Shown here: positions 3,155 to 33,420 of the stretch, piece after piece | How positions within the stretch are numbered: position 1 is the stretch's first letter | How the letters are laid out: every line of letters starts with the position of its first letter | IMG/VR virus record: IMGVR_UViG_2541047812_000003 | Length of the DNA: 37,695 nt | Direction: 5' to 3' (one strand) | DNA from: a virus | Taxonomy: Duplodnaviria; Heunggongvirae; Uroviricota; Caudoviricetes | Position numbers and translations under genes: made by a program | The notes under the pieces: model-generated | What the model was told of the DNA's origin: nothing | Database searches by the model: none | What the model saw: the letters and a program-made list of their open reading frames with translations, nothing else

Positions 3155-3516
3155 TATGCTCCAGCCTCCGGTGCTTTTGGCATTACTGCCCAGTGAGTGA
3201 TATTGACGTTTTCAAGGTCCCCGACCTGAAATGTCCACTGCCATTCTCCGGTTTCTTTTTGTCCCCAGGTGTACCAGAGAGAACGCCAGCCAATTAGCCA
3301 GCCTTCTCCGTTAGCATCGAATAACAAAACACTTTCATTTGCTGGTGGCAGTTCAGTTGACACTGGTATTACTTTGTTTTCCTGTGCTGCACATTTAGCT
3401 TCAAGCGCATCGAATTTACGCACCAGGTATTCAGCATCTGTTTCATTTACTTTCAGATCTCGCGGTACACATCTCCCACGAAGAAACCCTTCCATTTCGA
3501 AAACATTCATGCGCAT
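3154..3516 (-). CDS. DUF551-like phage protein (YfdS-like)
   Basis: 120-aa ORF with C-terminal ...ITHWAVMPKAPE resembling the DUF551 HWMPLP-type ending; GGAG Shine-Dalgarno 8 nt upstream of ATG; stop/start overlap with neighbours. Confidence 0.6.
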   Translation of the reverse strand: MRMNVFEMEGFLRGRCVPRDLKVNETDAEYLVRKFDALEAKCAAQENKVIPVSTELPPANESVLLFDANGEGWLIGWRSLWYTWGQKETGEWQWTFQVGDLENVNITHWAVMPKAPEAGA

Positions 3517-4043
3517 TTGCGTAACTCCGATAACTCGTTAAAGCGTTCCATAAACATCCCGTAGGCATGGCCCGGTGCCAGTGGAATCACGTTGAACATC
3601 TCTGTTGCCGGGATACCTTCCAGTACAGGCCAGAAAGAGCCATCATCAAGCCCGAGATCGCGGCGTTCGGTTGCCAGCATGATGAGATCGGCATATTTCA
3701 CGGGCGTACTCATAACTGGGGGTAACCCGTATTTCTCACGGATTACGGCGTCTATTTTTTCTTCCATTTGTTTATAGTCAGGAAGAAGGCGTTTCAGTGG
3801 TGCGGGAATGTCCTGGCAATACGCTTCTGTTGCATCATGCATTAACGCTTCAAAAGCAAATTCCTGCGGCACCAACTGGCTGCAAAGAACCGCATGTTGG
3901 GCGACGCTGTAGAAGTGCGAAAGATGACCGGCAAAGCGACAGATATTTGAAAGGGAAACCGCGATATCGTTAATATCGATGTCGTCTTTATTTATCCTGT
4001 CATAATAAAAATGCTTCCCGGAAAAAGTTTTAATAAATGACAT
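3507..4043 (-). CDS. HD-domain phosphohydrolase (YfdR-like 5'-deoxynucleotidase)
   Basis: Start at internal ATG (MSFIKTFSGK...) preceded by GGAG, rather than the track GTG at 4070; contains H...H and the HD dyad (EALMHDATEAY) of HD hydrolases; 178 aa. Confidence 0.75.
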   Translation of the reverse strand: MSFIKTFSGKHFYYDRINKDDIDINDIAVSLSNICRFAGHLSHFYSVAQHAVLCSQLVPQEFAFEALMHDATEAYCQDIPAPLKRLLPDYKQMEEKIDAVIREKYGLPPVMSTPVKYADLIMLATERRDLGLDDGSFWPVLEGIPATEMFNVIPLAPGHAYGMFMERFNELSELRKCA

Positions 4044-4170
4044 TTTGTTCTCCACGTATATGCGCTGCACCGCGCTGAATTCTGGTAAAAAGAATCCCTC
4101 ACCATCCGGCGATTATTGAGTAAATTACGTTTCCATAAATGCCCCCGCAAGGGCATTTGCAGTAATGAAA

Positions 4171-4995
4171 TCAGGCGGTGAAAGTACCAATAAAGGTTTC
4201 TACTTTGCTGTCCTTGAATTTCTCAACAAGCAGATCACGAAATTCGTTAGCCATTTCTTCCTGCACCGCCTCCAGCTGAATAATGCGCAGAACCAGTACA
4301 GGACGATCGCCAGTGATAATACTGAGGCGTAATTTAAACGGACGTTCTTTCAGACCTTCAAACGGAACGCATTTAAATTCAAATGCCACTGGCATAATGT
4401 CTTTGGTCTTCGCTTCGACAGACTCCATCAGGGAGCGTTTGCCGCTGAAGTCATTATCTTCAAAATCAGCGGTCTGGTTTGCTTCAATCGTGATTTTACG
4501 GACAGCCGCAGCCGCTTTTGTTGCCTGAATAGCGTCACCATTAGCATCAAAGCCCACAAGATAGTCGGCCCAGTCTTCAATCCATTCTGCCAGTGACTTC
4601 TGGGAGTTACGCTCGCCGTTAACAGACAACAGAGCAGAGAACGGTGCTGTCTTTTTCAGTTTGAGTGTGGCGGTGTTATCTGCGTGACCTGGTTCATCAA
4701 TAGTACCCAGGTTAAGCATACTGACGGCACGCATATTATCAGCATCGATAAAGCAGCGGGTGCCTTCATCTGCAAGATCTTTAGAATAACGGGTAAAGTC
4801 ATCGATGCTGGCAGTGGAAAGCGCACCACGGAAACGGAAGCGATTTAAATTAAATTTTTCCAGATCATGAATGCGGAAATTCTCAGGCAATGCCACAGCA
4901 TCGGCACCAATCTTACTGATAATTTCATTAACACCCTGAGCAGAAATAAGGGCATGGATTTGATTAATTGCGGTTGCGTCTAAGTTCTGAGACAT
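4171..4995 (-). CDS. DUF2303/YfdQ-like phage protein
   Basis: 274-aa ORF with ATG and GAGGA Shine-Dalgarno; length and position match YfdQ of the CPS-53 early block (assignment from memory, no search run). Confidence 0.65.
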
Positions 4996-17654: not shown

Positions 17655-17975
17655 ATGAAAGATGGTATCTATTTTGTTGTTTTCAGAAGCAATCAACGTG
17701 ATTTTGGTAATGGTACCGTAGTTGTCAAAAACAATGCAGTAAACGGCGGAGATTTTGGTTTTACGTATCAGGGAAAAATTGACGGTAGCCAACTTATTCT
17801 GCGCGTATCGCAGCATGATTTAAATGTCACCTCGGTTTTCCCTGGGGTAAAGAACTTTGAATTGAGTCTTTCTTTGCAGGAACGAGGACGTGATTACCTG
17901 TTAAATGGATCTGTGGTCGGAATGCCTCAGATGCAAATTTCAATTAGTGCAAAATACATTGGTGATCTGATTTAG
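17655..17975 (+). CDS. GrlR-family-like small protein (106 aa), low-GC moron
   Basis: MKDGIYFVVFRSNQ...GNGTVVVKNN...NGGDFGFTYQGK follows the N-terminal pattern recalled for GrlR-type regulators (KDGIY...SN...G.G...KN...GGD...YQG); followed by a strong intrinsic terminator. Confidence 0.5.
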   Translation: MKDGIYFVVFRSNQRDFGNGTVVVKNNAVNGGDFGFTYQGKIDGSQLILRVSQHDLNVTSVFPGVKNFELSLSLQERGRDYLLNGSVVGMPQMQISISAKYIGDLI

Positions 17976-26080: not shown

Positions 26081-26251
26081 ATGTTTGTGAAACCTGTTAA
26101 AGGGCGGTCAGTGCCTGACCCTGCCCGCGGTGACCTTTTGCCCGCCGAAGGGCGAAATGTTGACGAGAACAACTACTGGCTGCGCCGTGAAGCAGCGGGT
26201 GATATCCGGCGCGTGAATAAAAAGGTGAACACCGATGACGATAAGCTTTAA
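26081..26251 (+). CDS. small DUF2635-like protein (56 aa), not in the supplied ORF track
   Basis: ATG at 26081 gives MFVKPVKGRSVPDPARGDLLPAEGRNVDENNYWLRR..., resembling a small protein commonly found just upstream of Mu-like sheath genes (from memory); overlaps the sheath start by 17 nt. Confidence 0.5.
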   Translation: MFVKPVKGRSVPDPARGDLLPAEGRNVDENNYWLRREAAGDIRRVNKKVNTDDDKL

Positions 26252-27731
26252 CACCATTCCGTCGAATACGCTGGTTCCGATTTTTTATGCGGAAATGGAT
26301 AACTCGGCGGCGAATACTGCACAGGACAGCGGAGCATCGCTGCTGATTGGTCATGCCAATAACGGTGCAGAGATTGTTGCCAACAGTCTGGTGCTGATGC
26401 CATCGGCAGACTATGCACGCCAGATTTGTGGTGCGGGAAGTCAGCTGGCGCGTATGGTCGAGGCTTATCGCCAGACCGACCCGTTTGGTGAACTGTATGT
26501 GATTGCCGTTCCTGAATCCACGGGCGCGGCGGCAACAGTTACGCTGACGGTGACCGGCGCGGCAACCGAAACCGGCACGGTGAATGTTTATGTGGGACGT
26601 ACCCGCGTGCAGGCACCGGTGACCAACGGCGATAACGTCGCGACGATTGCCAGCAGTATCCAGGATGCCATCAATGCCGTTCCGACCCTGCCGTTTACTG
26701 CCTCATCTTCGGCAGGCGTGGTCACACTGACCGCGCGTCATAAGGGGCTTTGCGGGAATGAAATTCCTGTCAGCCTCAATTACTACGGCTTTGGTGGGGG
26801 CGAAGTGTTGCCAGCGGGCGTACAGATTGCCGTGGCGACGGGTACCGCCGGAACGGGCGCTCCTGTTCTCACCGGCGCGGTGGCTGCAATGGCGGATGAG
26901 CCGTTTGATTATATCGGCCTGCCGTTCAACGACACGGCCTCCGTTAACACGCTGGTGACCGAGATGAACGATACCAGCGGTCGCTGGAGCTATGCGCGTC
27001 AGCTGTATGGTCATGTGTATACGGCAAAGATCGGCACGCTGTCAGAACTGGTGACCGCAGGTGACCAGTTTAACCAGCAGCACATTACCCTGGCGGGGTA
27101 CGAAAAAGACACCCAGACGCCTGCCGACGAGCTGGCGGCAAGCCGTACCGCCCGCGCAGCGGTGTTTATCCGCAACGATCCGGCACGTCCCACGCAGACC
27201 GGTGAGCTGGTGGGTATGCTGCCTGCGCCGAAGGGAAAACGGTTCACGATGACCGAACAACAGACCCTGCTGTCTCATGGCGTGGCAACGGCGTATGTCG
27301 AAAGCGGGGTACTGCGCATTCAGCGTGATGTCACCACGTACAGGAAAAACGCTTACGGGGTTGCGGATAACAGCTACCTCGACAGCGAGACGCTGCATAC
27401 CAGCGCGTATGTACTGCGCAAACTGAAATCCGTCATTACCAGTAAGTACGGGCGTCACAAGCTTGCCAGTGACGGTACCCGCTTTGGTCCCGGTCAGGCG
27501 ATTGTCACCCCGGCGGTGATCAAAGGGGAACTGCTGGCAACCTACCGTCAGCTCGAGCGTGCGGGGATCGTGGAAAACTACGAACTGTTCAAGCAGTACC
27601 TGGTTGTGGAGCGTGATGCCAGCGATCCGAACCGCCTGAACACGCTGTTCCCGCCTGACTATGTTAACCAGTTGCGTGTCTTTGCCGTGGTTAACCAGTT
27701 CCGTCTTCAGTATTCAGAGGAGTCTGCATAA
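26235..27731 (+). CDS. contractile tail sheath protein (Mu gpL-like)
   Basis: 498 aa; size and position ahead of the tube gene; stop/start overlap with the tube gene (TAATG). Confidence 0.8.
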   Translation: MTISFNTIPSNTLVPIFYAEMDNSAANTAQDSGASLLIGHANNGAEIVANSLVLMPSADYARQICGAGSQLARMVEAYRQTDPFGELYVIAVPESTGAAATVTLTVTGAATETGTVNVYVGRTRVQAPVTNGDNVATIASSIQDAINAVPTLPFTASSSAGVVTLTARHKGLCGNEIPVSLNYYGFGGGEVLPAGVQIAVATGTAGTGAPVLTGAVAAMADEPFDYIGLPFNDTASVNTLVTEMNDTSGRWSYARQLYGHVYTAKIGTLSELVTAGDQFNQQHITLAGYEKDTQTPADELAASRTARAAVFIRNDPARPTQTGELVGMLPAPKGKRFTMTEQQTLLSHGVATAYVESGVLRIQRDVTTYRKNAYGVADNSYLDSETLHTSAYVLRKLKSVITSKYGRHKLASDGTRFGPGQAIVTPAVIKGELLATYRQLERAGIVENYELFKQYLVVERDASDPNRLNTLFPPDYVNQLRVFAVVNQFRLQYSEESA

Positions 27732-28087
27732 TGTCCCGTATCGGGGGAACCTGTTATTTCAAAATTGACGGTCAGCAGCTATCGCTGACCGGCGGCATTG
27801 AGGTGCCCATGAACAGGACGGTCAATGATGACATCATCGGCCTGGACGGCTCAGTGGACCGCAAGGAAACTCACCGTGCGCCTTATGTCAAAGGGACCTT
27901 CAAGGTGCCGAAGAATTTTCCGGTGAACAAAATCACCTCGTCTGATGAGATGACAATCACTGCCGAGCTGGCGAACGGTCAGGTCTATGTACTGTCGTCT
28001 GCCTGGCTGCACGGCGAAGCGAACCATAATGCCGAAGAAGGCACGGTTGATCTTGAGTTCCACGGTGAAGAAGGGGATTACCAGTAA
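27731..28087 (+). CDS. tail tube protein (Mu gpM-like)
   Basis: 118 aa, directly after the sheath gene and before the chaperone/tape-measure genes. Confidence 0.75.
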   Translation: MSRIGGTCYFKIDGQQLSLTGGIEVPMNRTVNDDIIGLDGSVDRKETHRAPYVKGTFKVPKNFPVNKITSSDEMTITAELANGQVYVLSSAWLHGEANHNAEEGTVDLEFHGEEGDYQ

Positions 28088-28356
28088 TGAAAGAGCTTGA
28101 GTTAAAGAAACCGATTACCGCTCATGGCGAGACACTCTCCGTACTGGAGTTTGATGAGCCCACCGGGAAAGATGTCCGCGAGCTGGGATATCCCTACCAG
28201 ATGAATCAGGATGAGTCCGTCAGACTTCTGGCGCATGTGGTATCGAAATACATCGTGCGGCTGGCGAAAGTGCCGCAAAGCTCTGTCGACCAGATGTCTC
28301 CGGCAGATCTGAATGCAGCGGCGTGGCTTGTGGCCGGTTTTTTCCTCCAGGCCTGA
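28087..28356 (+). CDS. tail assembly chaperone (short, in-frame form)
   Basis: 89-aa ORF immediately upstream of the tape measure gene; ends just after a T-TTT-TTC slippery heptamer. Confidence 0.65.
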   Translation: MKELELKKPITAHGETLSVLEFDEPTGKDVRELGYPYQMNQDESVRLLAHVVSKYIVRLAKVPQSSVDQMSPADLNAAAWLVAGFFLQA

Positions 28357-28505
28357 CGGCTGAATACCTCACTGATCGCTTCTTTGACTGCGCCAGTTAC
28401 TGGCGCATTAATCCTTTCGAATTGCTGAATATGCCGATCAGTGAAATTCCCTTACTGGTCAGTCAGGCAAACAGGATAGAGCAGGAGAAACGCACACATG
28501 GCTGA
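28338..28505 (+). other. -1 programmed frameshift site and extension ORF yielding the long chaperone form
   Basis: Slippery heptamer T TTT TTC at 28338-28344 in the 0 frame (codons GGT TTT TTC); the -1 frame continues ...RFFPPGLTAEYLTDRFFDCASYW... to a stop that overlaps the tape measure start (28498). Confidence 0.5.
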
Positions 28506-30330
28506 ATTTGAGCTTAAGGCGTTGATCACCGGTGTCGACAGGCTTTCTCCCGCGCTGTCGAAAATGCAAAAGAAAATCCGGGGATTTAAACGCCAGGCGG
28601 AAGAAGCGTCACAGGGTGGGCTGGCGCTTGGTGGCGGACTGGCAGCGGGTCTGACGCTTTCCCTGAAATCTTATGCCGATCAGGAAAACGCCGCCACCGG
28701 GCTGAAAGTCGCCATGATGGATGCGAACGGCGAGGTTGGAAAGAGCTTTCAGGACATCAATAAACTGGCTATTGGCCTGGGTAACCAGCTACCCGGTACA
28801 ACGGCTGATTTCCAGAACATGATGCAGATGCTGGTGCGTCAGGGGATCCCGGCAGAAAACATTCTGGGTGGTGTGGGTAAAGCGACAGCTTATCTTGCGG
28901 TACAACTGAAAAAAACACCGGAAGCGGCTGCTGAGTTTGCTGCAAAGATGCAGGATGCTACCGGAACGGCGTCAGAAGACATGATGGGGCTGTTCGACAC
29001 TATCCAGAAGGCGTTTTATCTGGGCGTTGACGATACCAACATGTTGTCCTTCTTCACTAAAACCAGTTCTGTTCTGAAGATGGTGAACAAGGATGGTCTT
29101 CAGGCTGCGCAGAGCCTTGCCCCCATCAGCGTCATGATGGATCAGATGGGGATGAACGGGGAGTCGGCAGGTAATGCCCTGCGAAAAGTTATCCAGTCCG
29201 GATTAAGCGTTAAGAAAATCAGGGACGTTAATAAAGTTATGGCCCGCCAGAAACTCGGGGTACAGCTCGATTTTACTGACGGCAAAGGAAGTTTTGGCGG
29301 TCTTGATAACATGTTCAGGCAACTGGCAAAGCTGCGAAAACTGACCGACGTTAAGCGAACAGGTGTACTTAAGGCAATATTTGGTGATGATGCCGAAACC
29401 CTTCAGGTGGTCAATGCACTAATCGATAAAGGAAAGGATGGCTACGATCAGATCCAGCAGAAGATGAATAAACAGGCCAGCCTGAATAAACGTGTTCAGG
29501 CACAGCTTGGTACGCTGTCCAACCTGTGGGAGGCAATGACAGGGACCGCAACTAACGGCCTTGCGGCTATTGGCGGCGCATTTTCTGGTGACGCTAAAAA
29601 TATCACGCAATGGCTGGGGGAGTTGGGGGAGAAATTCACGAAATTTGCGGATGAAAATCCCCGGGTTATTCGCGGCGTCGTCGGGCTTGCTGCCGGTCTT
29701 GCGATTCTGAAACTGGGATTGATGGGCGTGGGCAGTGCCATCAGTATTGTCAGCAGGATTATGTCGATGACGCCGATAGGCATGATTGCGACGGCGATTG
29801 CTCTGGCTGCGGGATTAATTATCACTAACTGGGATGTTGTCGGACCTTATTTTAAGAAGCTCTGGGAAACCATTGGTCCTTATTTTGAGGCTGGCTGGGA
29901 ACTTCTGAAGAAAGTTTTTGCCTGGTCGCCGCTGGGAATGGTGATCAATAACTGGGGACCGGTTGTTAAGTGGTTTCAGGATATGTGGGACAAGCTGAAG
30001 CCAATTATTGAGTGGTTTACCGACAGTTCCGGTGACACGGTCGATGCCATTAACTCTGCGCAGTGGGGCGCGGGTGCTTATGATGCTTATGGGACGGGAA
30101 TACCGGCGCGGGGATACACACCTTATCCGGCGGTGGATCCGGCTCAGTCAAACAACGCCTCCGATGCCACAGGCTCGAATCCCTTCATGATTAACAAAGC
30201 TTCTGTGCCAAAAGTTGATGGTGAGATCAAGGTATCTTTTGTGAATTCGCCTCCGGGTATGCGGGTTATGGAAACGCGATCCAGCGGTTTTGATGTCAGC
30301 CATGATGTTGGCTATACGCGGTTCAGGTAG
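28498..30330 (+). CDS. tail tape measure protein
   Basis: 610 aa; helical/Ala-Gly-rich with a hydrophobic segment near residue 400; follows the frameshifted chaperone pair. Confidence 0.85.
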   Translation: MAEFELKALITGVDRLSPALSKMQKKIRGFKRQAEEASQGGLALGGGLAAGLTLSLKSYADQENAATGLKVAMMDANGEVGKSFQDINKLAIGLGNQLPGTTADFQNMMQMLVRQGIPAENILGGVGKATAYLAVQLKKTPEAAAEFAAKMQDATGTASEDMMGLFDTIQKAFYLGVDDTNMLSFFTKTSSVLKMVNKDGLQAAQSLAPISVMMDQMGMNGESAGNALRKVIQSGLSVKKIRDVNKVMARQKLGVQLDFTDGKGSFGGLDNMFRQLAKLRKLTDVKRTGVLKAIFGDDAETLQVVNALIDKGKDGYDQIQQKMNKQASLNKRVQAQLGTLSNLWEAMTGTATNGLAAIGGAFSGDAKNITQWLGELGEKFTKFADENPRVIRGVVGLAAGLAILKLGLMGVGSAISIVSRIMSMTPIGMIATAIALAAGLIITNWDVVGPYFKKLWETIGPYFEAGWELLKKVFAWSPLGMVINNWGPVVKWFQDMWDKLKPIIEWFTDSSGDTVDAINSAQWGAGAYDAYGTGIPARGYTPYPAVDPAQSNNASDATGSNPFMINKASVPKVDGEIKVSFVNSPPGMRVMETRSSGFDVSHDVGYTRFR

Positions 30331-30411
30331 TGTACAAAATGATTAATGTGTTTTTGTCTGGCATAATTTGGGTTTTCAGCTTTAAGTAGTTAATATAATC
30401 ATTCCTTACAA

Positions 30412-30924
30412 ATGATTGAAGGGATGATTATGCGTATCTTTGTTTTTTTTATATCTGCACTTTTATCTTTTAACTTGGCTGCGGAAGAGTGTAAGTTCAG
30501 CTTTAATGAGTCAGAATTAATCTCTTCTATAGGTATTGCACCAGTTAAGCAAGAGATAATAAAGGATGAAGGAATAACTAAGCGGCAATATGAATTCAGA
30601 AGAGAATTATCTTCTGAAGAAATGCTTAGTGATGACGCTGATGAAAAATATGAGCCGCAGTTTTATATATCTGTTTATAATCCATTATGCCCACAAAAGG
30701 TTATTGTTTGGTTTTTCAAAGACAATAAAAACACAATGGATTTAAGTAATGAGGTCCTTGCTGGTAGAGCGTTCAAGTATTTAACTGGTGTTAATGAAAG
30801 TATTTTTGAAAATAAAATGAAAAAGTTTTTAAAGGTACAGTCATTTGAATCTTTTGATGAAAGGACAGATTCTAAATTTATAAAGAGTGGTGATATTTAT
30901 TCCATTGATGTTCAACTCAGATAG
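30412..30924 (+). CDS. hypothetical secreted protein (signal peptide), low-GC moron inside the tail module (likely start 30430)
   Basis: MRIFVFFISALLSFNLAAEE... is signal-peptide-like; strongly AT-rich gene with a TATAAT -10 element upstream (~30394-30399) and a terminator-like structure downstream; no family recognised. Confidence 0.55.
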   Translation: MIEGMIMRIFVFFISALLSFNLAAEECKFSFNESELISSIGIAPVKQEIIKDEGITKRQYEFRRELSSEEMLSDDADEKYEPQFYISVYNPLCPQKVIVWFFKDNKNTMDLSNEVLAGRAFKYLTGVNESIFENKMKKFLKVQSFESFDERTDSKFIKSGDIYSIDVQLR

Positions 30925-30943
30925 TAATTAAAAATATTAGGTT

Positions 30944-31000
30944 CCCGCCACATCTTCTGCGATGTAAATAATTGACAAAGCAGATTTGGCGGGTTTTTTT
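30944..31000 (+). terminator. candidate terminator after the moron gene
   Basis: CCCGCCA ... TGGCGGG inverted repeat (with an inner CATC...GATG hairpin) ending in TTTTTTT, 20 bp after the moron stop. Confidence 0.4.
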
Positions 31001-31015
31001 GTATCCGGAGTTTAT

Positions 31016-32344
31016 ATGACGTGGAAAGACAGGCTTCAGGATGCGTCATTTCGCGGCGTACCGTTTAAGGTTGAAGAAGAAAGTGCGGGAACCGGTCGCC
31101 GTGTGGAAACACACGAATATCCGAACCGCGACAAGCCCTATACCGAAGACCTGGGAAAAGTCACTTTCCGCCCGTCCATCACAGCTTATGTGGTGGGAGA
31201 TGACTGCTTTGACCAGCGCGATCGCCTGATTGAAGCGCTGAATAAACCCGGTCCCGGCACGCTTGTCCACCCGACATATGGTGAGCTGAAAGTCTGTGTT
31301 GACGGGGAAGTTCGGGTCAGCACATCGAAAAGTGAAGGGCGTATTGTCCGCTTTGACCTGAAGTTTGTCGAAGCAGGAGAACTCTCTTACCCCACATCAG
31401 GTGCGGCGACGGCGCAAACGCTGATGTCATCCTGTTCTGCACTGGATGACTGCATCAGTGATAGCTTCAGTGGTTTCAGTATCGATGGCGTGGCAGATTT
31501 TGTGCAGAACGACGTCGTCGGTAATGCCAGCACAATGCTTGGGTATGTTTCTGATGCGATGAAAGTGGTGGATTCTGCCGTATCGGATGCCGCCAGGCTG
31601 TTGCAGGGGGATATCTCGGTACTTCTGCCGCCGCCATCGTCAGGCAAAAATTTCGTTGAGCAGGTGCAGAAAATGTGGCGTACCGGGAAACGCCTTTATG
31701 GTAACGCCAGCGACCTGGTCACCATGATCAAAACGCTTTCCGGTGTCAGCCTCGGCAGCGATCTGCAACCGCGCGGCGTCTGGAAAACGGACAGTAAAAC
31801 CACCGCCACGGCGACGCAGCAGCGTAACGTGGTTGCCAGCACCCTTCGTACGACCGCAATCAGCGAAGCGGCGTATGCCGTCACCCGATTGCCTGCGCCA
31901 ACAACTTCCGCGGTGATGCAGAATTCCGCAGTGGGGCAGGCAACAACACCTGCGCAGAGCACTGGCTGGCCTTCCGTCACGCATCCGGCACTGAACAATG
32001 CACCGGCGGTGAAAAACACGGTTGACCTGCCGACGTGGGAAGAACTGACTGACATTCGCGACACACTGAATACGGCAATTGATAAGGAGTTGTCCCGTAC
32101 AACCAGTGATGCGCTGTTTCTGGCGCTGCGCCGGGTGAAAGCAGATCTGAATGCGGATATCAACACGCGCCTTGAACAGTCTGCACGGATCATTCAGCGC
32201 ACACCGGATGAGGTTTTACCCGCGCTGGTGCTGGCGGCGACCTGGTTTGATAACGCGGCGCGTGACGCGGACATTATCCGGCGTAATGCCATTACGCATC
32301 CCGGCTTTGTGCCGGTGATCCCTCTGAAGGTGCCAGTGCAATGA
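31016..32344 (+). CDS. DNA circulation protein (Mu gpN-like)
   Basis: Start at internal ATG (MTWKDRLQDASFRGVPF...) with GGAG Shine-Dalgarno, rather than the track TTG at 30986; N-terminal region typical of Mu gpN-type proteins. Confidence 0.75.
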   Translation: MTWKDRLQDASFRGVPFKVEEESAGTGRRVETHEYPNRDKPYTEDLGKVTFRPSITAYVVGDDCFDQRDRLIEALNKPGPGTLVHPTYGELKVCVDGEVRVSTSKSEGRIVRFDLKFVEAGELSYPTSGAATAQTLMSSCSALDDCISDSFSGFSIDGVADFVQNDVVGNASTMLGYVSDAMKVVDSAVSDAARLLQGDISVLLPPPSSGKNFVEQVQKMWRTGKRLYGNASDLVTMIKTLSGVSLGSDLQPRGVWKTDSKTTATATQQRNVVASTLRTTAISEAAYAVTRLPAPTTSAVMQNSAVGQATTPAQSTGWPSVTHPALNNAPAVKNTVDLPTWEELTDIRDTLNTAIDKELSRTTSDALFLALRRVKADLNADINTRLEQSARIIQRTPDEVLPALVLAATWFDNAARDADIIRRNAITHPGFVPVIPLKVPVQ

Positions 32345-33420
32345 ACGACAATGTCACGCTACGGGTAAATGGCCGGGAGTGGAATGGCTGGACATCGGTG
32401 CGCATCGGTGCCGGTATTGAACGGCTGGCGCGGGATTTCAGTGTGGAGATCACCCGCCAGTGGCCGGGAGATGAGGGTATTACCACGCTTCAGCCGCGCA
32501 TTAAAAACGGTTCAAAAGTGGAGGTGCTGATTGGTGATGAGCTGGTGATCACCGGCTGGGTGGAGGCGACGCCCGTTCGTTACGATGCCCGTTCGGTCAG
32601 CACCGGTATTGCCGGACGCAGTCTGACTGCTGACCTGATTGACTGTGCAGCCGAACCGACACAGTTTAACGGACGATCGCTGGTACAGATTGCGCAGGCG
32701 CTTGCTGCGCCTTTCGGCATTGAGGTGGTGAACAACGGTGCGCCGTCGGGTGTTATTCCTGATGTCCAGCCTGATCACGGTGAAACGGTGATTGAGGTAA
32801 TCAACAAAATACTCGGTCAGCAGCAGGCACTGGCTTACGACGACCCGCACGGCAGGCTGGTGATTGGCGGTATTGGCTCAACGCGGGCACATACTGCGCT
32901 GGTACTCGGGGAAAACATCCTTTCCTGCGATACGGAGAAGAGTATCCGGGAGCGGTTTTCTGTTTACCAGGTGGCGGGGCAGCGTGCCGGAAACGACGAT
33001 GATTTCGGTGAGGCCACCACCACCGCGCTGCGGGCCCGCACAGAGGACGCATTTATTGCCCGTTACCGTCCGATGTATATCAGGCAGACAGGGCAGGCTA
33101 CGGGGGCAGGCTGTATTGCCCGTGCGGACTTTGAAGCCCGACAACGGGCGGCGCGGACGGATGAAACCACCTATGTGGTGCAGGGCTGGCGACAGGGTAA
33201 CGGTACGCTGTGGCAGCCCAACCAGCGGGTGATTGTCTTTGATCCGGTCTGTGGTTTCGACAATACCGAACTGCTTGTTTCGGAAGTCACGTTTACTCAG
33301 GACCAGAACGGCACCCTGACGGAAATCCGTGTCGGCCCACCTGATGCTTATCTGCCTGAACCCGAAGCCCCCGGCGCGCGGAAAAAGAAAAAAGCCAGAG
33401 TACAGGAGGACCCGTTCTGA
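32341..33420 (+). CDS. baseplate/tail protein (Mu gpP-like)
   Basis: 359-aa ORF overlapping the upstream stop; position between the DNA circulation and baseplate V genes. Confidence 0.7.
   Translation: MNDNVTLRVNGREWNGWTSVRIGAGIERLARDFSVEITRQWPGDEGITTLQPRIKNGSKVEVLIGDELVITGWVEATPVRYDARSVSTGIAGRSLTADLIDCAAEPTQFNGRSLVQIAQALAAPFGIEVVNNGAPSGVIPDVQPDHGETVIEVINKILGQQQALAYDDPHGRLVIGGIGSTRAHTALVLGENILSCDTEKSIRERFSVYQVAGQRAGNDDDFGEATTTALRARTEDAFIARYRPMYIRQTGQATGAGCIARADFEARQRAARTDETTYVVQGWRQGNGTLWQPNQRVIVFDPVCGFDNTELLVSEVTFTQDQNGTLTEIRVGPPDAYLPEPEAPGARKKKKARVQEDPF

What the first reader, a model, noticed from the sequence alone, without database searches (positions are those of the whole stretch)
30331..31015. 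Secreted-protein moron between the tape measure and DNA circulation genes
A strongly AT-rich cassette interrupts the conserved Mu-like tail gene order. It has a TATAAT -10 element upstream, a 164-170-aa protein with a signal peptide (MRIFVFFISALLSFNLAAEE) and no recognised family, and a terminator-like structure downstream. Autonomous promoter and terminator plus atypical composition are moron hallmarks; a periplasmic or secreted product in a lysogen suggests exclusion at the cell envelope or a host-interaction factor.
Basis: partly seen in the sequence, partly recalled or inferred. Interest (0 to 1): 0.6.

Follow-up and report, generated by a model that had tools for sequence, protein, structure and literature searches.

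The report
Exported-protein gene in tail-operon cargo slot
A small, AT-rich gene for an exported protein of unknown function sits in a slot of a prophage tail operon that holds different cell-envelope genes, or nothing, in related phages; it most likely helps block infection by other phages, but that has not been tested.

Summary
Between the tape-measure gene (28498-30330) and the DNA-circularization/hub gene (31016-32344) of an SfV/SfII-like prophage lies a 685-bp AT-rich segment (GC 0.31 against about 0.55 in the flanks). It carries one real gene, 30430-30924 (164 aa). The protein has a conserved Sec-type signal peptide and two invariant cysteines.

The moron reading is partly right.
- The gene is dispensable and the site is polymorphic. 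Of 1097 E. coli genomes with this junction, 531 have an empty site, 85 have this gene, and the rest mostly carry one of three unrelated genes (a lipoprotein, a membrane-anchored OB-fold "Sie-like" protein, a 176-aa anchored protein).
- Outside Enterobacterales the two tail genes abut.
- The terminator belongs to the phage backbone, not the cassette. It is conserved in empty and filled sites alike.
- The promoter is weak evidence: a perfect -10, a poor -35 and a 15-nt spacer.
- The AT-richness does not mark recent import. Every homolog found (27-98% identity) sits in this same slot, diverges in step with the tail genes, and stays AT-rich.
- The protein matches phrog_8976 (unknown function). It has no Pfam, NCBIfam or PADLOC hit and no convincing structural match.

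The most likely role is periplasmic superinfection exclusion. This is inferred, not shown. I rate it a new member of a known kind, of moderate interest.

The parts
28498..30330 (+). Tail tape measure gene (left flank). Its stop codon is the left edge of the cargo slot.
   Evidence: PF10145 E 1e-26 and phrog_28. Homology with empty-site phages breaks at the last few codons.
30373..30399 (+). Candidate sigma-70 promoter: -35 TTTTCA (30373-30378), 15-nt spacer, -10 TATAAT (30394-30399). Unproven.
   Evidence: My relaxed scan scores it 10 of 12. The tool scan, which requires a 16-18 nt spacer, does not report it. The chance expectation for TATAAT in the leader is 0.15. A -10-like hexamer ends 31-36 nt upstream of the ATG in 6 of 9 cargo leaders compared.
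30394..30432 (+). Leader hairpin that pairs the Shine-Dalgarno (AGGGA, 30420-30424) and the AUG (30430-30432) with the segment that overlaps the TATAAT.
   Evidence: dG -16.5 kcal/mol, z -3.5, 1 of 200 shuffles fold as well. Mean paired probability of the ribosome-binding site is 0.95 against 0.65 +/- 0.11 when the upstream part is shuffled, 0 of 300. With only a 24-nt leader it falls to 0.54, and a 30406-30450 transcript has almost no predicted structure (dG -3.1). The same occlusion is seen in L017 but not in L008, L010 or L014.
30430..30924 (+). Cargo gene: a 164-aa precursor of an exported protein (phrog_8976). An alternative upstream ATG at 30412 would give 170 aa.
   Evidence: AlphaFold2 mean pLDDT 87.8 with a 13-sequence alignment. 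39 invariant columns, including C21 and C87.
30430..30483 (+). Codons for the predicted Sec signal peptide (M1-A18, MRIFVFFISALLSFNLAA, predicted cleavage before EEC).
   Evidence: The n/h/c-region pattern and the nearly invariant A18 are conserved in all aligned homologs. pLDDT is below 55 for residues 1-20, so they are not part of the fold. SignalP was not run.
30944..31000 (+). Intrinsic-terminator-like hairpin: stems 30944-30950 and 30987-30993, then T7 at 30994-31000. It is the backbone terminator of the slot, here carrying a roughly 32-38-nt insertion in its loop.
   Evidence: Orthologous position and sequence (ACCCGC-TTCG-GCGGGT-T7) in empty and filled sites.
31007..32344 (+). Shine-Dalgarno GGAG (31007-31010) and the DNA-circularization/baseplate-hub gene (ATG 31016), the right flank.
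   Evidence: PF07157 E 4e-34, phrog_184.

Best explanation
The segment is the filling of a defined cargo slot in the tail operon of SfV/SfII-like temperate phages of Enterobacterales, which combine an HK97-type head with a Mu-type contractile tail.

The slot lies between the stop codon of the tape-measure gene and a conserved backbone intrinsic terminator. That terminator sits just upstream of the ribosome-binding site of the DNA-circularization/hub gene.

In this prophage the slot holds one non-structural gene. Its 164-aa product is exported by the Sec pathway. The signal peptide is cut after Ala18, leaving an acidic periplasmic protein of about 17 kDa, probably with one disulfide (C21-C87). 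It belongs to a tiny orphan family found only in this slot.

During lytic growth the gene is necessarily transcribed with the tail genes by Q-antiterminated RNA polymerase. It may also be transcribed in the lysogen from a weak promoter of its own, and the backbone terminator would then keep that transcript out of the baseplate genes.

The most likely job (inferred) is superinfection exclusion. From the periplasm, the protein would interfere with envelope penetration or DNA injection by incoming phages, most plausibly phages with related tails. This would be analogous to HK97 gp15, Ltp, Cor/Llp and T4 Spackle.

Shown: the anatomy, dispensability, polymorphism, slot fidelity, signal-peptide conservation and backbone terminator. 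Inferred: export, expression in the lysogen and the exclusion function.
For: 1. Dispensable and polymorphic. Of 1097 of 5426 complete E. coli genomes carrying the junction, 531 have the empty SfII-type site and 85 have this gene. A further 179 have a 176-aa N-terminally anchored protein, 54-79 an N-terminally anchored OB-fold protein on the opposite strand, and 55 a 225-aa lipoprotein with an LLGGC lipobox. The viable phages SfV, SfII and SfI lack it; phage SKA5 and Pantoea phage AH07 have it.
2. The slot is clade-specific. In 18 of the 19 relatives outside Enterobacterales where the TMP gene could be located, the TMP stop and the DNA-circularization start abut (-1 to +18 nt). In Enterobacterales the gap is either 33-73 nt (empty, terminator only) or 270-2877 nt. 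The filled gaps hold at least 10 unrelated cargo types, and most of them have an N-terminal signal or transmembrane segment.
3. A neighbouring allele of the slot, the OB-fold protein, matches phrog_8545 'superinfection exclusion Sie-like' at E 1.5e-49. The lipoprotein allele also occurs in the cargo region between the replication gene gpA and the portal gene of Fels-2, and next to the TMP gene in an Acinetobacter phage.
4. Export signals are conserved: the signal peptide, the nearly invariant A18, and the invariant C21 and C87.
5. The protein folds confidently (pLDDT 87.8) and evolves faster than its structural neighbours. Cargo identity is 57-62% where TMP is 70-78% and the hub gene gpP 81-83%.
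6. The prophage has a Q antiterminator (PF03589), so the terminator need not block late tail expression.
7. Precedents: HK97 gp15 is a moron next to the TMP gene that blocks injection in a tail-dependent way (PMC3594210). Ltp targets the TMP (Bebeacua et al. 2013, as cited in PMC3952083). Polymorphic lipoprotein genes inside the structural cluster of mEpimmI coliphages were shown to exclude phages (PMC11893012).
Against: - No exclusion, expression or localisation data exist for this protein.
- The promoter is weak by consensus. In L018, L021 and AH07 the gene is packed 15-17 nt behind the TMP gene, which fits a purely late-expressed operon member.
- Some cargo types in the slot look cytoplasmic: a 134-aa protein, and a 183-aa protein that I take by eye to be Clp-protease-like. 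So the slot is not exclusively for envelope proteins.
- The guilt-by-location argument rests on a database name (phrog_8545), not on an experiment.
Confidence: 0.45

Rival explanations
1. Late lytic-cycle periplasmic helper. The gene is simply a member of the Q-dependent late operon and acts only in infected cells. It might stop progeny being wasted on the dying cell or its debris (the T5 Llp logic), or modulate the envelope or peptidoglycan around lysis. It would have no role in the lysogen.
For: Same strand as the late tail operon and inside it. In L018, L021 and AH07 only 15-17 nt with a Shine-Dalgarno separate it from the TMP stop. No consensus promoter is found. It diverges in step with the tail module over its whole depth, cargo 98 to 27% against TMP 98 to 58%. 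That looks like a long-resident operon member, not a hopping moron.
Against: In the window's leader the ribosome-binding site is strongly occluded on read-through transcripts, which would damp exactly this mode of expression. About half of close relatives manage without any gene here. The alternative occupants of the slot include a Sie-like annotated protein and a lipoprotein found in prophage cargo regions. Persistent AT-richness is typical of accessory genes that the host silences or regulates.
Confidence: 0.2
2. Lysogenic-conversion or fitness factor unrelated to phages. The periplasmic protein would change host envelope physiology, stress tolerance or host-animal interaction, in the way lambda Bor or Lom do.
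For: It is an exported product in a temperate phage. The cassette is AT-rich and followed by a terminator. Many carriers listed are poultry or APEC isolates, and SKA5 comes from an APEC strain. Morons have varied host-benefit roles (PMC3594210).
Against: The family exists only in this tail-operon slot and diverges with the tail genes. That is hard to explain for a host-directed factor, which would be expected to move between phage types or have chromosomal homologs. None were found among 5.8 billion sequences or among representatives of 15 billion. The poultry bias is anecdotal and was not tested.
Confidence: 0.17
3. Classical recently acquired moron. A foreign AT-rich gene, with its own promoter and terminator, was recently inserted by horizontal transfer from an AT-rich donor.
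For: GC 0.31 against 0.55 in the flanks. TATAAT upstream and a hairpin plus T-run downstream. Absent from SfV, SfII and SfI.
Against: All homologs, down to 27% identity, are in the same slot in tail modules that have diverged in parallel. They keep GC3 at 0.25-0.31 (0.42 in the most distant, L018), so the low GC is maintained rather than a fading import signature. No homolog occurs outside this context. The terminator is backbone.
Confidence: 0.08
4. Tail structural or assembly protein, for example a chaperone or tail-tip component, in which the hydrophobic N-terminus is not a signal peptide.
For: Its position is between the TMP and hub genes, and it diverges in step with them.
Against: It is absent from infectious relatives whose flanks are 97% identical (SfV, SfII, SfI) and from 531 E. 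coli prophages. It is replaceable by unrelated genes, one of them on the opposite strand. It is absent from all relatives outside Enterobacterales. The conserved n/h/c signal-peptide architecture and the cysteine pair point to export.
Confidence: 0.03

Closest known systems
HK97 gp15 moron (Cumby et al. 2012; reviewed in PMC3594210)
   Same: An extra gene next to the tape-measure gene inside a tail operon of a temperate coliphage. It has atypical GC and an envelope-located product, and it is dispensable for the virion. Exclusion by gp15 depends on the incoming phage's tail region.
   Different: gp15 lies upstream of the TMP gene in a siphovirus. It is a small inner-membrane protein related to host YebO and has chromosomal homologs. 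The protein here is a soluble, Sec-exported 164-aa precursor with no homolog outside this slot and no sequence similarity to gp15. Exclusion is untested here.
Ltp (TP-J34) and the Cor, Llp and mEpimmI Lpp exclusion lipoproteins
   Same: Exported phage proteins that act outside the cytoplasm to block DNA injection or mask a receptor. Ltp targets the TMP. The mEpimmI Lpp genes are polymorphic and lie within the structural gene cluster (PMC11893012). The 225-aa allele at this same slot is a lipoprotein.
   Different: The window protein has no lipobox and no sequence or structural similarity to them. These are different phage lineages.
T4 Spackle (Sp)
   Same: A small periplasmic protein with a signal peptide that blocks envelope penetration by an incoming contractile tail (from general knowledge).
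   Different: Spackle is an early gene of a lytic phage and is helical (from memory), and it inhibits gp5 lysozyme. The model here is an alpha/beta sheet protein with no similarity found, and no lysozyme domain was detected in the flanking tail proteins.
phrog_8976 (PHROGs v4)
   Same: The protein is a full-length member (E 2e-106, residues 7-170 of the 170-aa ORF onto profile positions 1-164).
   Different: The family has no assigned function or category, so membership adds a name only.
Cargo/defence hot spots of temperate phages (for example the P2-like region between the replication gene gpA and the portal gene)
   Same: A fixed genomic slot with conserved flanks that is empty or carries diverse, unrelated, AT-rich accessory genes. 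The lipoprotein allele of this slot also occurs in that region of Fels-2.
   Different: This slot lies inside the late tail operon, is bounded by a conserved intrinsic terminator, and carries mainly single small envelope-protein genes rather than cytoplasmic defence systems. I found no description of it in the searchable literature.

Membership tests
Moron (sense of Juhala/Hendrix 2000, as summarised in PMC3594210) | Extra DNA between genes that are adjacent in related phages | tested here: met
   Empty site in SfV, SfII, SfI and 531 E. coli genomes. TMP and DNA-circularization genes abut outside Enterobacterales.
Moron (sense of Juhala/Hendrix 2000, as summarised in PMC3594210) | [quoted passage not shown] | tested here: met
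   GC 0.31 against 0.52-0.56; GC3 0.26 against 0.56-0.60. The difference is maintained in deep orthologs, so it does not imply recent transfer.
Moron (sense of Juhala/Hendrix 2000, as summarised in PMC3594210) | Own promoter | tested here: inconclusive
   TATAAT with a TTTTCA -35 at a 15-nt spacer. The consensus scan is negative. The chance expectation for the -10 is 0.15. A -10-like hexamer recurs 31-36 nt upstream of the ATG in 6 of 9 leaders. In three relatives there is no room between the genes.
Moron (sense of Juhala/Hendrix 2000, as summarised in PMC3594210) | Own terminator | tested here: not met
   A terminator is present, but it is a backbone element shared by empty sites and unrelated cargo.
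Moron (sense of Juhala/Hendrix 2000, as summarised in PMC3594210) | Expressed from the repressed prophage | not testable with these tools
   Needs RNA-seq or 5' RACE on an uninduced lysogen.
Moron (sense of Juhala/Hendrix 2000, as summarised in PMC3594210) | Disseminated among unrelated phage genomes by horizontal transfer | tested here: not met
   Every family member whose context was read (16 loci from 6 look-ups, 3 species-scan loci, 2 isolated phages and the E. coli prophages) lies in the same slot of the same tail type. The lipoprotein allele, by contrast, does meet this.
Sec-exported (type I signal peptide) protein | Positively charged n-region, hydrophobic h-region of 10-15 residues, small residues at -1 and -3 of the c-region | tested here: met
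   By inspection: MR / IFVFFISALLSF / NLAA|EE. A18 is nearly invariant. Orthologs show ATA|E, SIA|E, VIA|D and VNA|E. In the window protein -3 is Leu, which is less typical. SignalP was not available.
Sec-exported (type I signal peptide) protein | Experimental processing or periplasmic localisation | not testable with these tools
   The two invariant cysteines (C21, C87) are consistent with a periplasmic disulfide. Their distance in the model could not be read.
Known superinfection-exclusion and defence families (gp15/YebO, Ltp, Cor, Llp, Sie, PADLOC set) | Sequence or fold homology to a characterised member | tested here: not met
Known superinfection-exclusion and defence families (gp15/YebO, Ltp, Cor, Llp, Sie, PADLOC set) | Exclusion phenotype | not testable with these tools
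   Needs plating, adsorption and injection assays.
phrog_8976 | Full-length profile match | tested here: met
   E 2.3e-106, profile positions 1-164 of 164.
Core Mu-type tail/baseplate component | Present in all tail modules of the type | tested here: not met
   Absent from most close relatives and from all relatives outside Enterobacterales.

The most novel reading that the evidence does not exclude
The family is a slot-locked periplasmic exclusion factor that co-evolves with its own phage's tape-measure/tail-tip proteins. It would recognise the tail tip of its own and sibling phages as it crosses the periplasm, which would explain why the family is never found outside this slot and diverges in step with the TMP gene.

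In addition, the window allele may carry a promoter-dependent translational switch. Late read-through transcripts would fold the 30394-30432 hairpin that hides the ribosome-binding site. A transcript started from the TATAAT that forms the hairpin's 5' arm would lack that arm and could be translated in the lysogen.

On this reading, the conserved backbone terminator and the maintained low GC3 would be parts of a dedicated lysogen-only expression slot built into a late operon.
Probability: 0.2. Interest if true: 0.65.

Novelty: new member of a known kind. Interest (0 to 1): 0.4.

Why it matters
If the exclusion reading is right, this locus gives a compact, testable system. One well-defined slot in a very common family of E. 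coli and Shigella prophages, present in about 20% of complete E. coli genomes, swaps single envelope-protein genes. These genes could decide which phages can enter a lysogen. That bears on prophage competition, on Shigella serotype-converting phages and on phage-therapy host range.

The conserved terminator inside a late operon, and the long-term maintenance of low GC in a gene that diverges with its neighbours, are also useful cautions. 'AT-rich plus terminator' does not by itself show recent horizontal acquisition or an autonomous transcription unit.

If the protein has no phenotype, the finding reduces to an ordinary hypothetical accessory gene.

Tried and rejected
- Remote homology gave no functional lead. 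Pfam, NCBIfam and PADLOC found nothing for the protein. A profile search of PDB sequences returned only spurious hits, best E 0.004.
- The exhaustive profile search of 1.84 billion representatives found only 12 proteins, all the same small family.
- An Rfam scan of 30100-31200 found nothing credible. No repeats suggest a transposon or integration scar at the cassette edges.
- Ribosome-binding-site occlusion as a family-wide feature was rejected. It is significant only in the window and in L017, not in L008, L010, L014 or the other cargo types.
- A structural tail role was rejected because the gene is dispensable.
- A lipoprotein was rejected because there is no lipobox before C21.
- Literature searches found no paper on this locus, on phage SKA5, or on this family.
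Full report
**1. What is there**

The window is an SfV/SfII/SfI-like prophage inserted beside proA. The proA ORF is at 1-1254 and the integrase at 1459-2622 (PF00589). A near-identical prophage in E. coli WP4-S18-ESBL-08 sits at tRNA-Thr/proA. The phage has an HK97-type head and a Mu-type contractile tail. The tail genes run sheath 26235-27731, tube 27731-28087, chaperone 28087-28356, tape measure (TMP) 28498-30330, DNA-circularization/hub 31016-32344 and gpP-like hub 32341-33420.

The flagged interval 30331-31015 is exactly the stretch between the TMP stop and the DNA-circularization ATG. GC drops to 0.29-0.34 there, against 0.50-0.60 in the flanks.

The interval contains one substantial ORF, 30412-30924. 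The real start is almost certainly ATG 30430, giving 164 aa:
- A GAAGGGA Shine-Dalgarno lies 5 nt upstream.
- RefSeq annotates 164 aa.
- The PHROG profile has 164 positions.
- All orthologs align from this Met.

The gene is real. It has orthologs down to 27% identity with 39 invariant columns. AlphaFold2 gives mean pLDDT 87.8 from only 13 sequences, with the first 20 residues disordered, as expected for a signal peptide.

**2. The three 'hallmarks'**

*Signal peptide.* The sequence MR-IFVFFISALLSF-NLAA|EEC has the n/h/c architecture of a Sec signal. Ala18 is nearly invariant. Orthologs show ATA|E, SIA|E, VIA|D and VNA|E. Two cysteines, C21 and C87, are invariant. This supports export to the periplasm. 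SignalP could not be run.

*Promoter.* TATAAT at 30394-30399 is real, but it is expected 0.15 times by chance in this AT-rich 99-nt leader, and a second copy lies inside the ORF. The tool's sigma-70 scan finds no + strand promoter. The best pairing is TTTTCA, a 15-nt spacer, then TATAAT. Across nine cargo leaders, from family orthologs and two other cargo types, six have a -10-like hexamer ending 31-36 nt before the ATG. In L018 and L021 that hexamer lies inside the TMP 3' end. This is suggestive, not proof.

*Terminator.* The hairpin 30944-30993 plus T7 exists, but it is not part of the cassette. The motif (A)ACCCGC-T[TC]CG-GCGGG(T)-T6-7-...CCGGAG-...ATG is conserved in front of the DNA-circularization gene throughout the Enterobacterales clade. 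It is found in empty sites; in some of them the TMP stop codon overlaps the stem. It is also found behind unrelated + strand cargo genes. SfII's authors annotated a terminator at the empty site. The window copy differs only by an insertion of roughly 32-38 nt in the loop.

**3. The site is a cargo slot**

Counts among 5426 complete E. coli genomes, of which 1097 carry the junction:

| Slot content | Genomes |
|---|---|
| Empty, SfII-type junction in one piece | 531 |
| This gene | 85 |
| 176-aa N-terminally anchored protein | 179 |
| N-terminally anchored OB-fold (PF12869) protein, opposite strand | 54-79 |
| 225-aa lipoprotein (LLGGC lipobox) | 55 |

The flanks remain 95-98% identical across these alleles, so turnover is recent.

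I also scanned one genome per species:
- Outside Enterobacterales (alpha-, beta- and other proteobacteria), the TMP stop and DNA-circularization start abut or overlap, at -1 to +18 nt, in 18 of the 19 relatives where the TMP gene could be located.
- In Enterobacterales the gap is either 33-73 nt (terminator only) or 270-2877 nt.
- The filled gaps hold at least ten unrelated cargo types. Most have an N-terminal signal peptide or transmembrane segment. A few look cytoplasmic: a 134-aa protein, and a 183-aa protein that I take by eye to be Clp-protease-like.

The OB-fold allele matches phrog_8545, 'superinfection exclusion Sie-like', at E 1.5e-49. The lipoprotein family also occurs in Fels-2, in the cargo region between the replication gene gpA and the portal gene, and beside the TMP gene of an Acinetobacter phage.

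**4. This family is slot-locked and old**

The family is tiny. It gave 16 hits among 5.8 billion sequences and 12 among 1.84 billion representatives with a profile. Two isolated phages carry it: SKA5 and Pantoea phage AH07.

Every member whose context I could read lies between the TMP and DNA-circularization genes on the same strand. These include Kosakonia, Atlantibacter, Kluyvera, Pantoea and several metagenomic contigs.

Identity to the window protein falls in step with the tail genes:

| Comparison | Cargo | TMP | DNA-circ. |
|---|---|---|---|
| E. coli alleles | about 98% | flanks 97-98% (nt) | - |
| L017 | 62% | 76% | 72% |
| L010 | 60% | 77% | 76% |
| L008 (Kosakonia) | 59% | 78% | 74% |
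| L014 (Atlantibacter) | 57% | 70% | 64% |
| L021 | 36% | 60% | 56% |
| L018 | 27% | 58% | 43% |

So the gene has been inherited with the tail module, and it evolves about 1.5-2 times faster than its neighbours.

It stays AT-rich everywhere. Its GC is 0.33-0.37, and its GC3 is 0.25-0.31 (0.42 in the most distant ortholog, L018), against GC3 of 0.49-0.64 in the flanks. At this divergence synonymous sites should have equilibrated. The low GC is therefore maintained, for reasons unknown; H-NS targeting or low expression are possibilities. It is not a sign of recent import.

In L018, L021 and AH07 the gene starts 15-17 nt after the TMP stop.

**5. Expression logic (inferred)**

The prophage encodes a Q antiterminator (14162-14914, PF03589). 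Late transcription should therefore read through the slot terminator, and the cargo gene is unavoidably part of the late transcript. If a promoter fires in the lysogen, the backbone terminator would insulate the baseplate genes from it.

In this allele a strong hairpin (30394-30432, dG -16.5, z -3.5) pairs the Shine-Dalgarno and AUG with the segment beginning at the TATAAT. The paired probability of the ribosome-binding site is 0.95, against 0.65 +/- 0.11 when the upstream part is shuffled (0 of 300). With only a 24-nt leader it falls to 0.54, and a transcript starting near 30406 (folded as 30406-30450) has almost no predicted structure (dG -3.1). This could favour translation of promoter-proximal transcripts over read-through ones. 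However, the feature recurs only in L017 and not in L008, L010 or L014, so I treat it as a lead.

**6. Function**

No family, defence-system or structural match gives a mechanism. The mature protein is acidic and about 17 kDa. It has a seven-stranded sheet packed by two long helices.

The best-supported inference is a periplasmic superinfection-exclusion or entry-blocking protein. The grounds are:
- it is dispensable;
- it is exported;
- it evolves faster than its structural neighbours;
- it lies next to the TMP gene;
- it is allelic with a Sie-like annotated protein and a lipoprotein.

There are also precedents. HK97 gp15 is a moron beside the TMP gene whose exclusion depends on the incoming tail (PMC3594210). 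Ltp targets the TMP (Bebeacua et al. 2013, as cited in PMC3952083). Polymorphic exclusion lipoproteins are encoded within the structural cluster of mEpimmI coliphages (PMC11893012).

I put about 0.45 on this reading, about 0.2 on a purely late-acting periplasmic role, about 0.17 on a host-directed conversion factor, about 0.08 on recent horizontal acquisition as its origin, and about 0.03 on a structural role.

**7. Verdict**

It is an accessory, moron-like cargo gene for an exported protein. The terminator, however, is backbone, the promoter is unproven, and the AT-richness is maintained rather than recently imported.

I rate it a new member of a known kind: an envelope-protein accessory gene in a tail operon. 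Two features deserve a closer look. One is a conserved, terminator-bounded cargo slot that I could not find described. The other is an orphan family that never leaves that slot. Interest 0.4.

Noticed in passing
window 15012-15602 (+): A 196-aa ORF with GC 0.33 and no Pfam hit. It lies between the Q antiterminator gene (14162-14914) and the holin gene (15751-16137), the classic position for a moron between Q and the lysis genes.
   Followed up: partly
window 17655-17975 (+): An AT-rich 106-aa ORF (region GC 0.39) with a borderline match to the T3SS regulator family GrlR (PF16518, 26.7 bits against a cutoff of 26.8). It lies between the lysis genes and the HNH/terminase genes, so it may be a second accessory gene.
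   Followed up: partly
window 30394-30432: A leader hairpin sequesters the cargo gene's Shine-Dalgarno and AUG, and its 5' arm is the TATAAT itself. This could link translation to the choice of promoter. A similar occlusion occurs in L017 but not in three other orthologs.
   Followed up: partly
window 30944-31000; L022-L066 slot regions: An intrinsic terminator (ACCCGC-TYCG-GCGGGT plus a T-run) is conserved between the TMP and DNA-circularization genes of this tail type across Enterobacterales, even in empty sites where the TMP stop overlaps the stem. Relatives outside Enterobacterales lack it. The window copy has a loop insertion of roughly 32-38 nt that contains TTGACA.
   Followed up: yes
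window 30430-30924 and orthologs in L008, L014, L018, L021: GC3 stays at 0.25-0.31 (0.42 in L018) in orthologs that have diverged to 27-62% identity, while neighbouring genes sit at 0.49-0.64. The low GC is maintained and has not drifted toward the flanks; the cause is unknown.
   Followed up: partly
L014 6980-8778 (Atlantibacter MAG): Two extra genes (506 aa and 93 aa, no Pfam) lie between the DNA-circularization and gpP-like hub genes. This is a second insertion point in the same tail operon.
   Followed up: no
L061, L062 (Lonsdalea) and L044, L064 (Mangrovibacter) slot regions: In these species the slot holds multi-gene inserts of 1.8-2.9 kb. In Lonsdalea they include a signal-peptide protein plus larger ORFs of about 300 aa. 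They were not characterised.
   Followed up: no
NZ_CP193494.1 (E. coli O121 WL1277), hit H33: An IS3-family transposase interrupts the tape-measure gene of the related prophage, so that prophage is probably defective.
   Followed up: no
L103 (Fels-2) 3447-4178; L104 (Acinetobacter phage Ab1656-2) 3501-4181: Relatives of the 225-aa lipoprotein allele occur in Fels-2, in the cargo region between the replication gene gpA and the portal gene, and just upstream of the TMP gene in an Acinetobacter phage. This shows that this allele, unlike the window's family, moves between phage types.
   Followed up: partly
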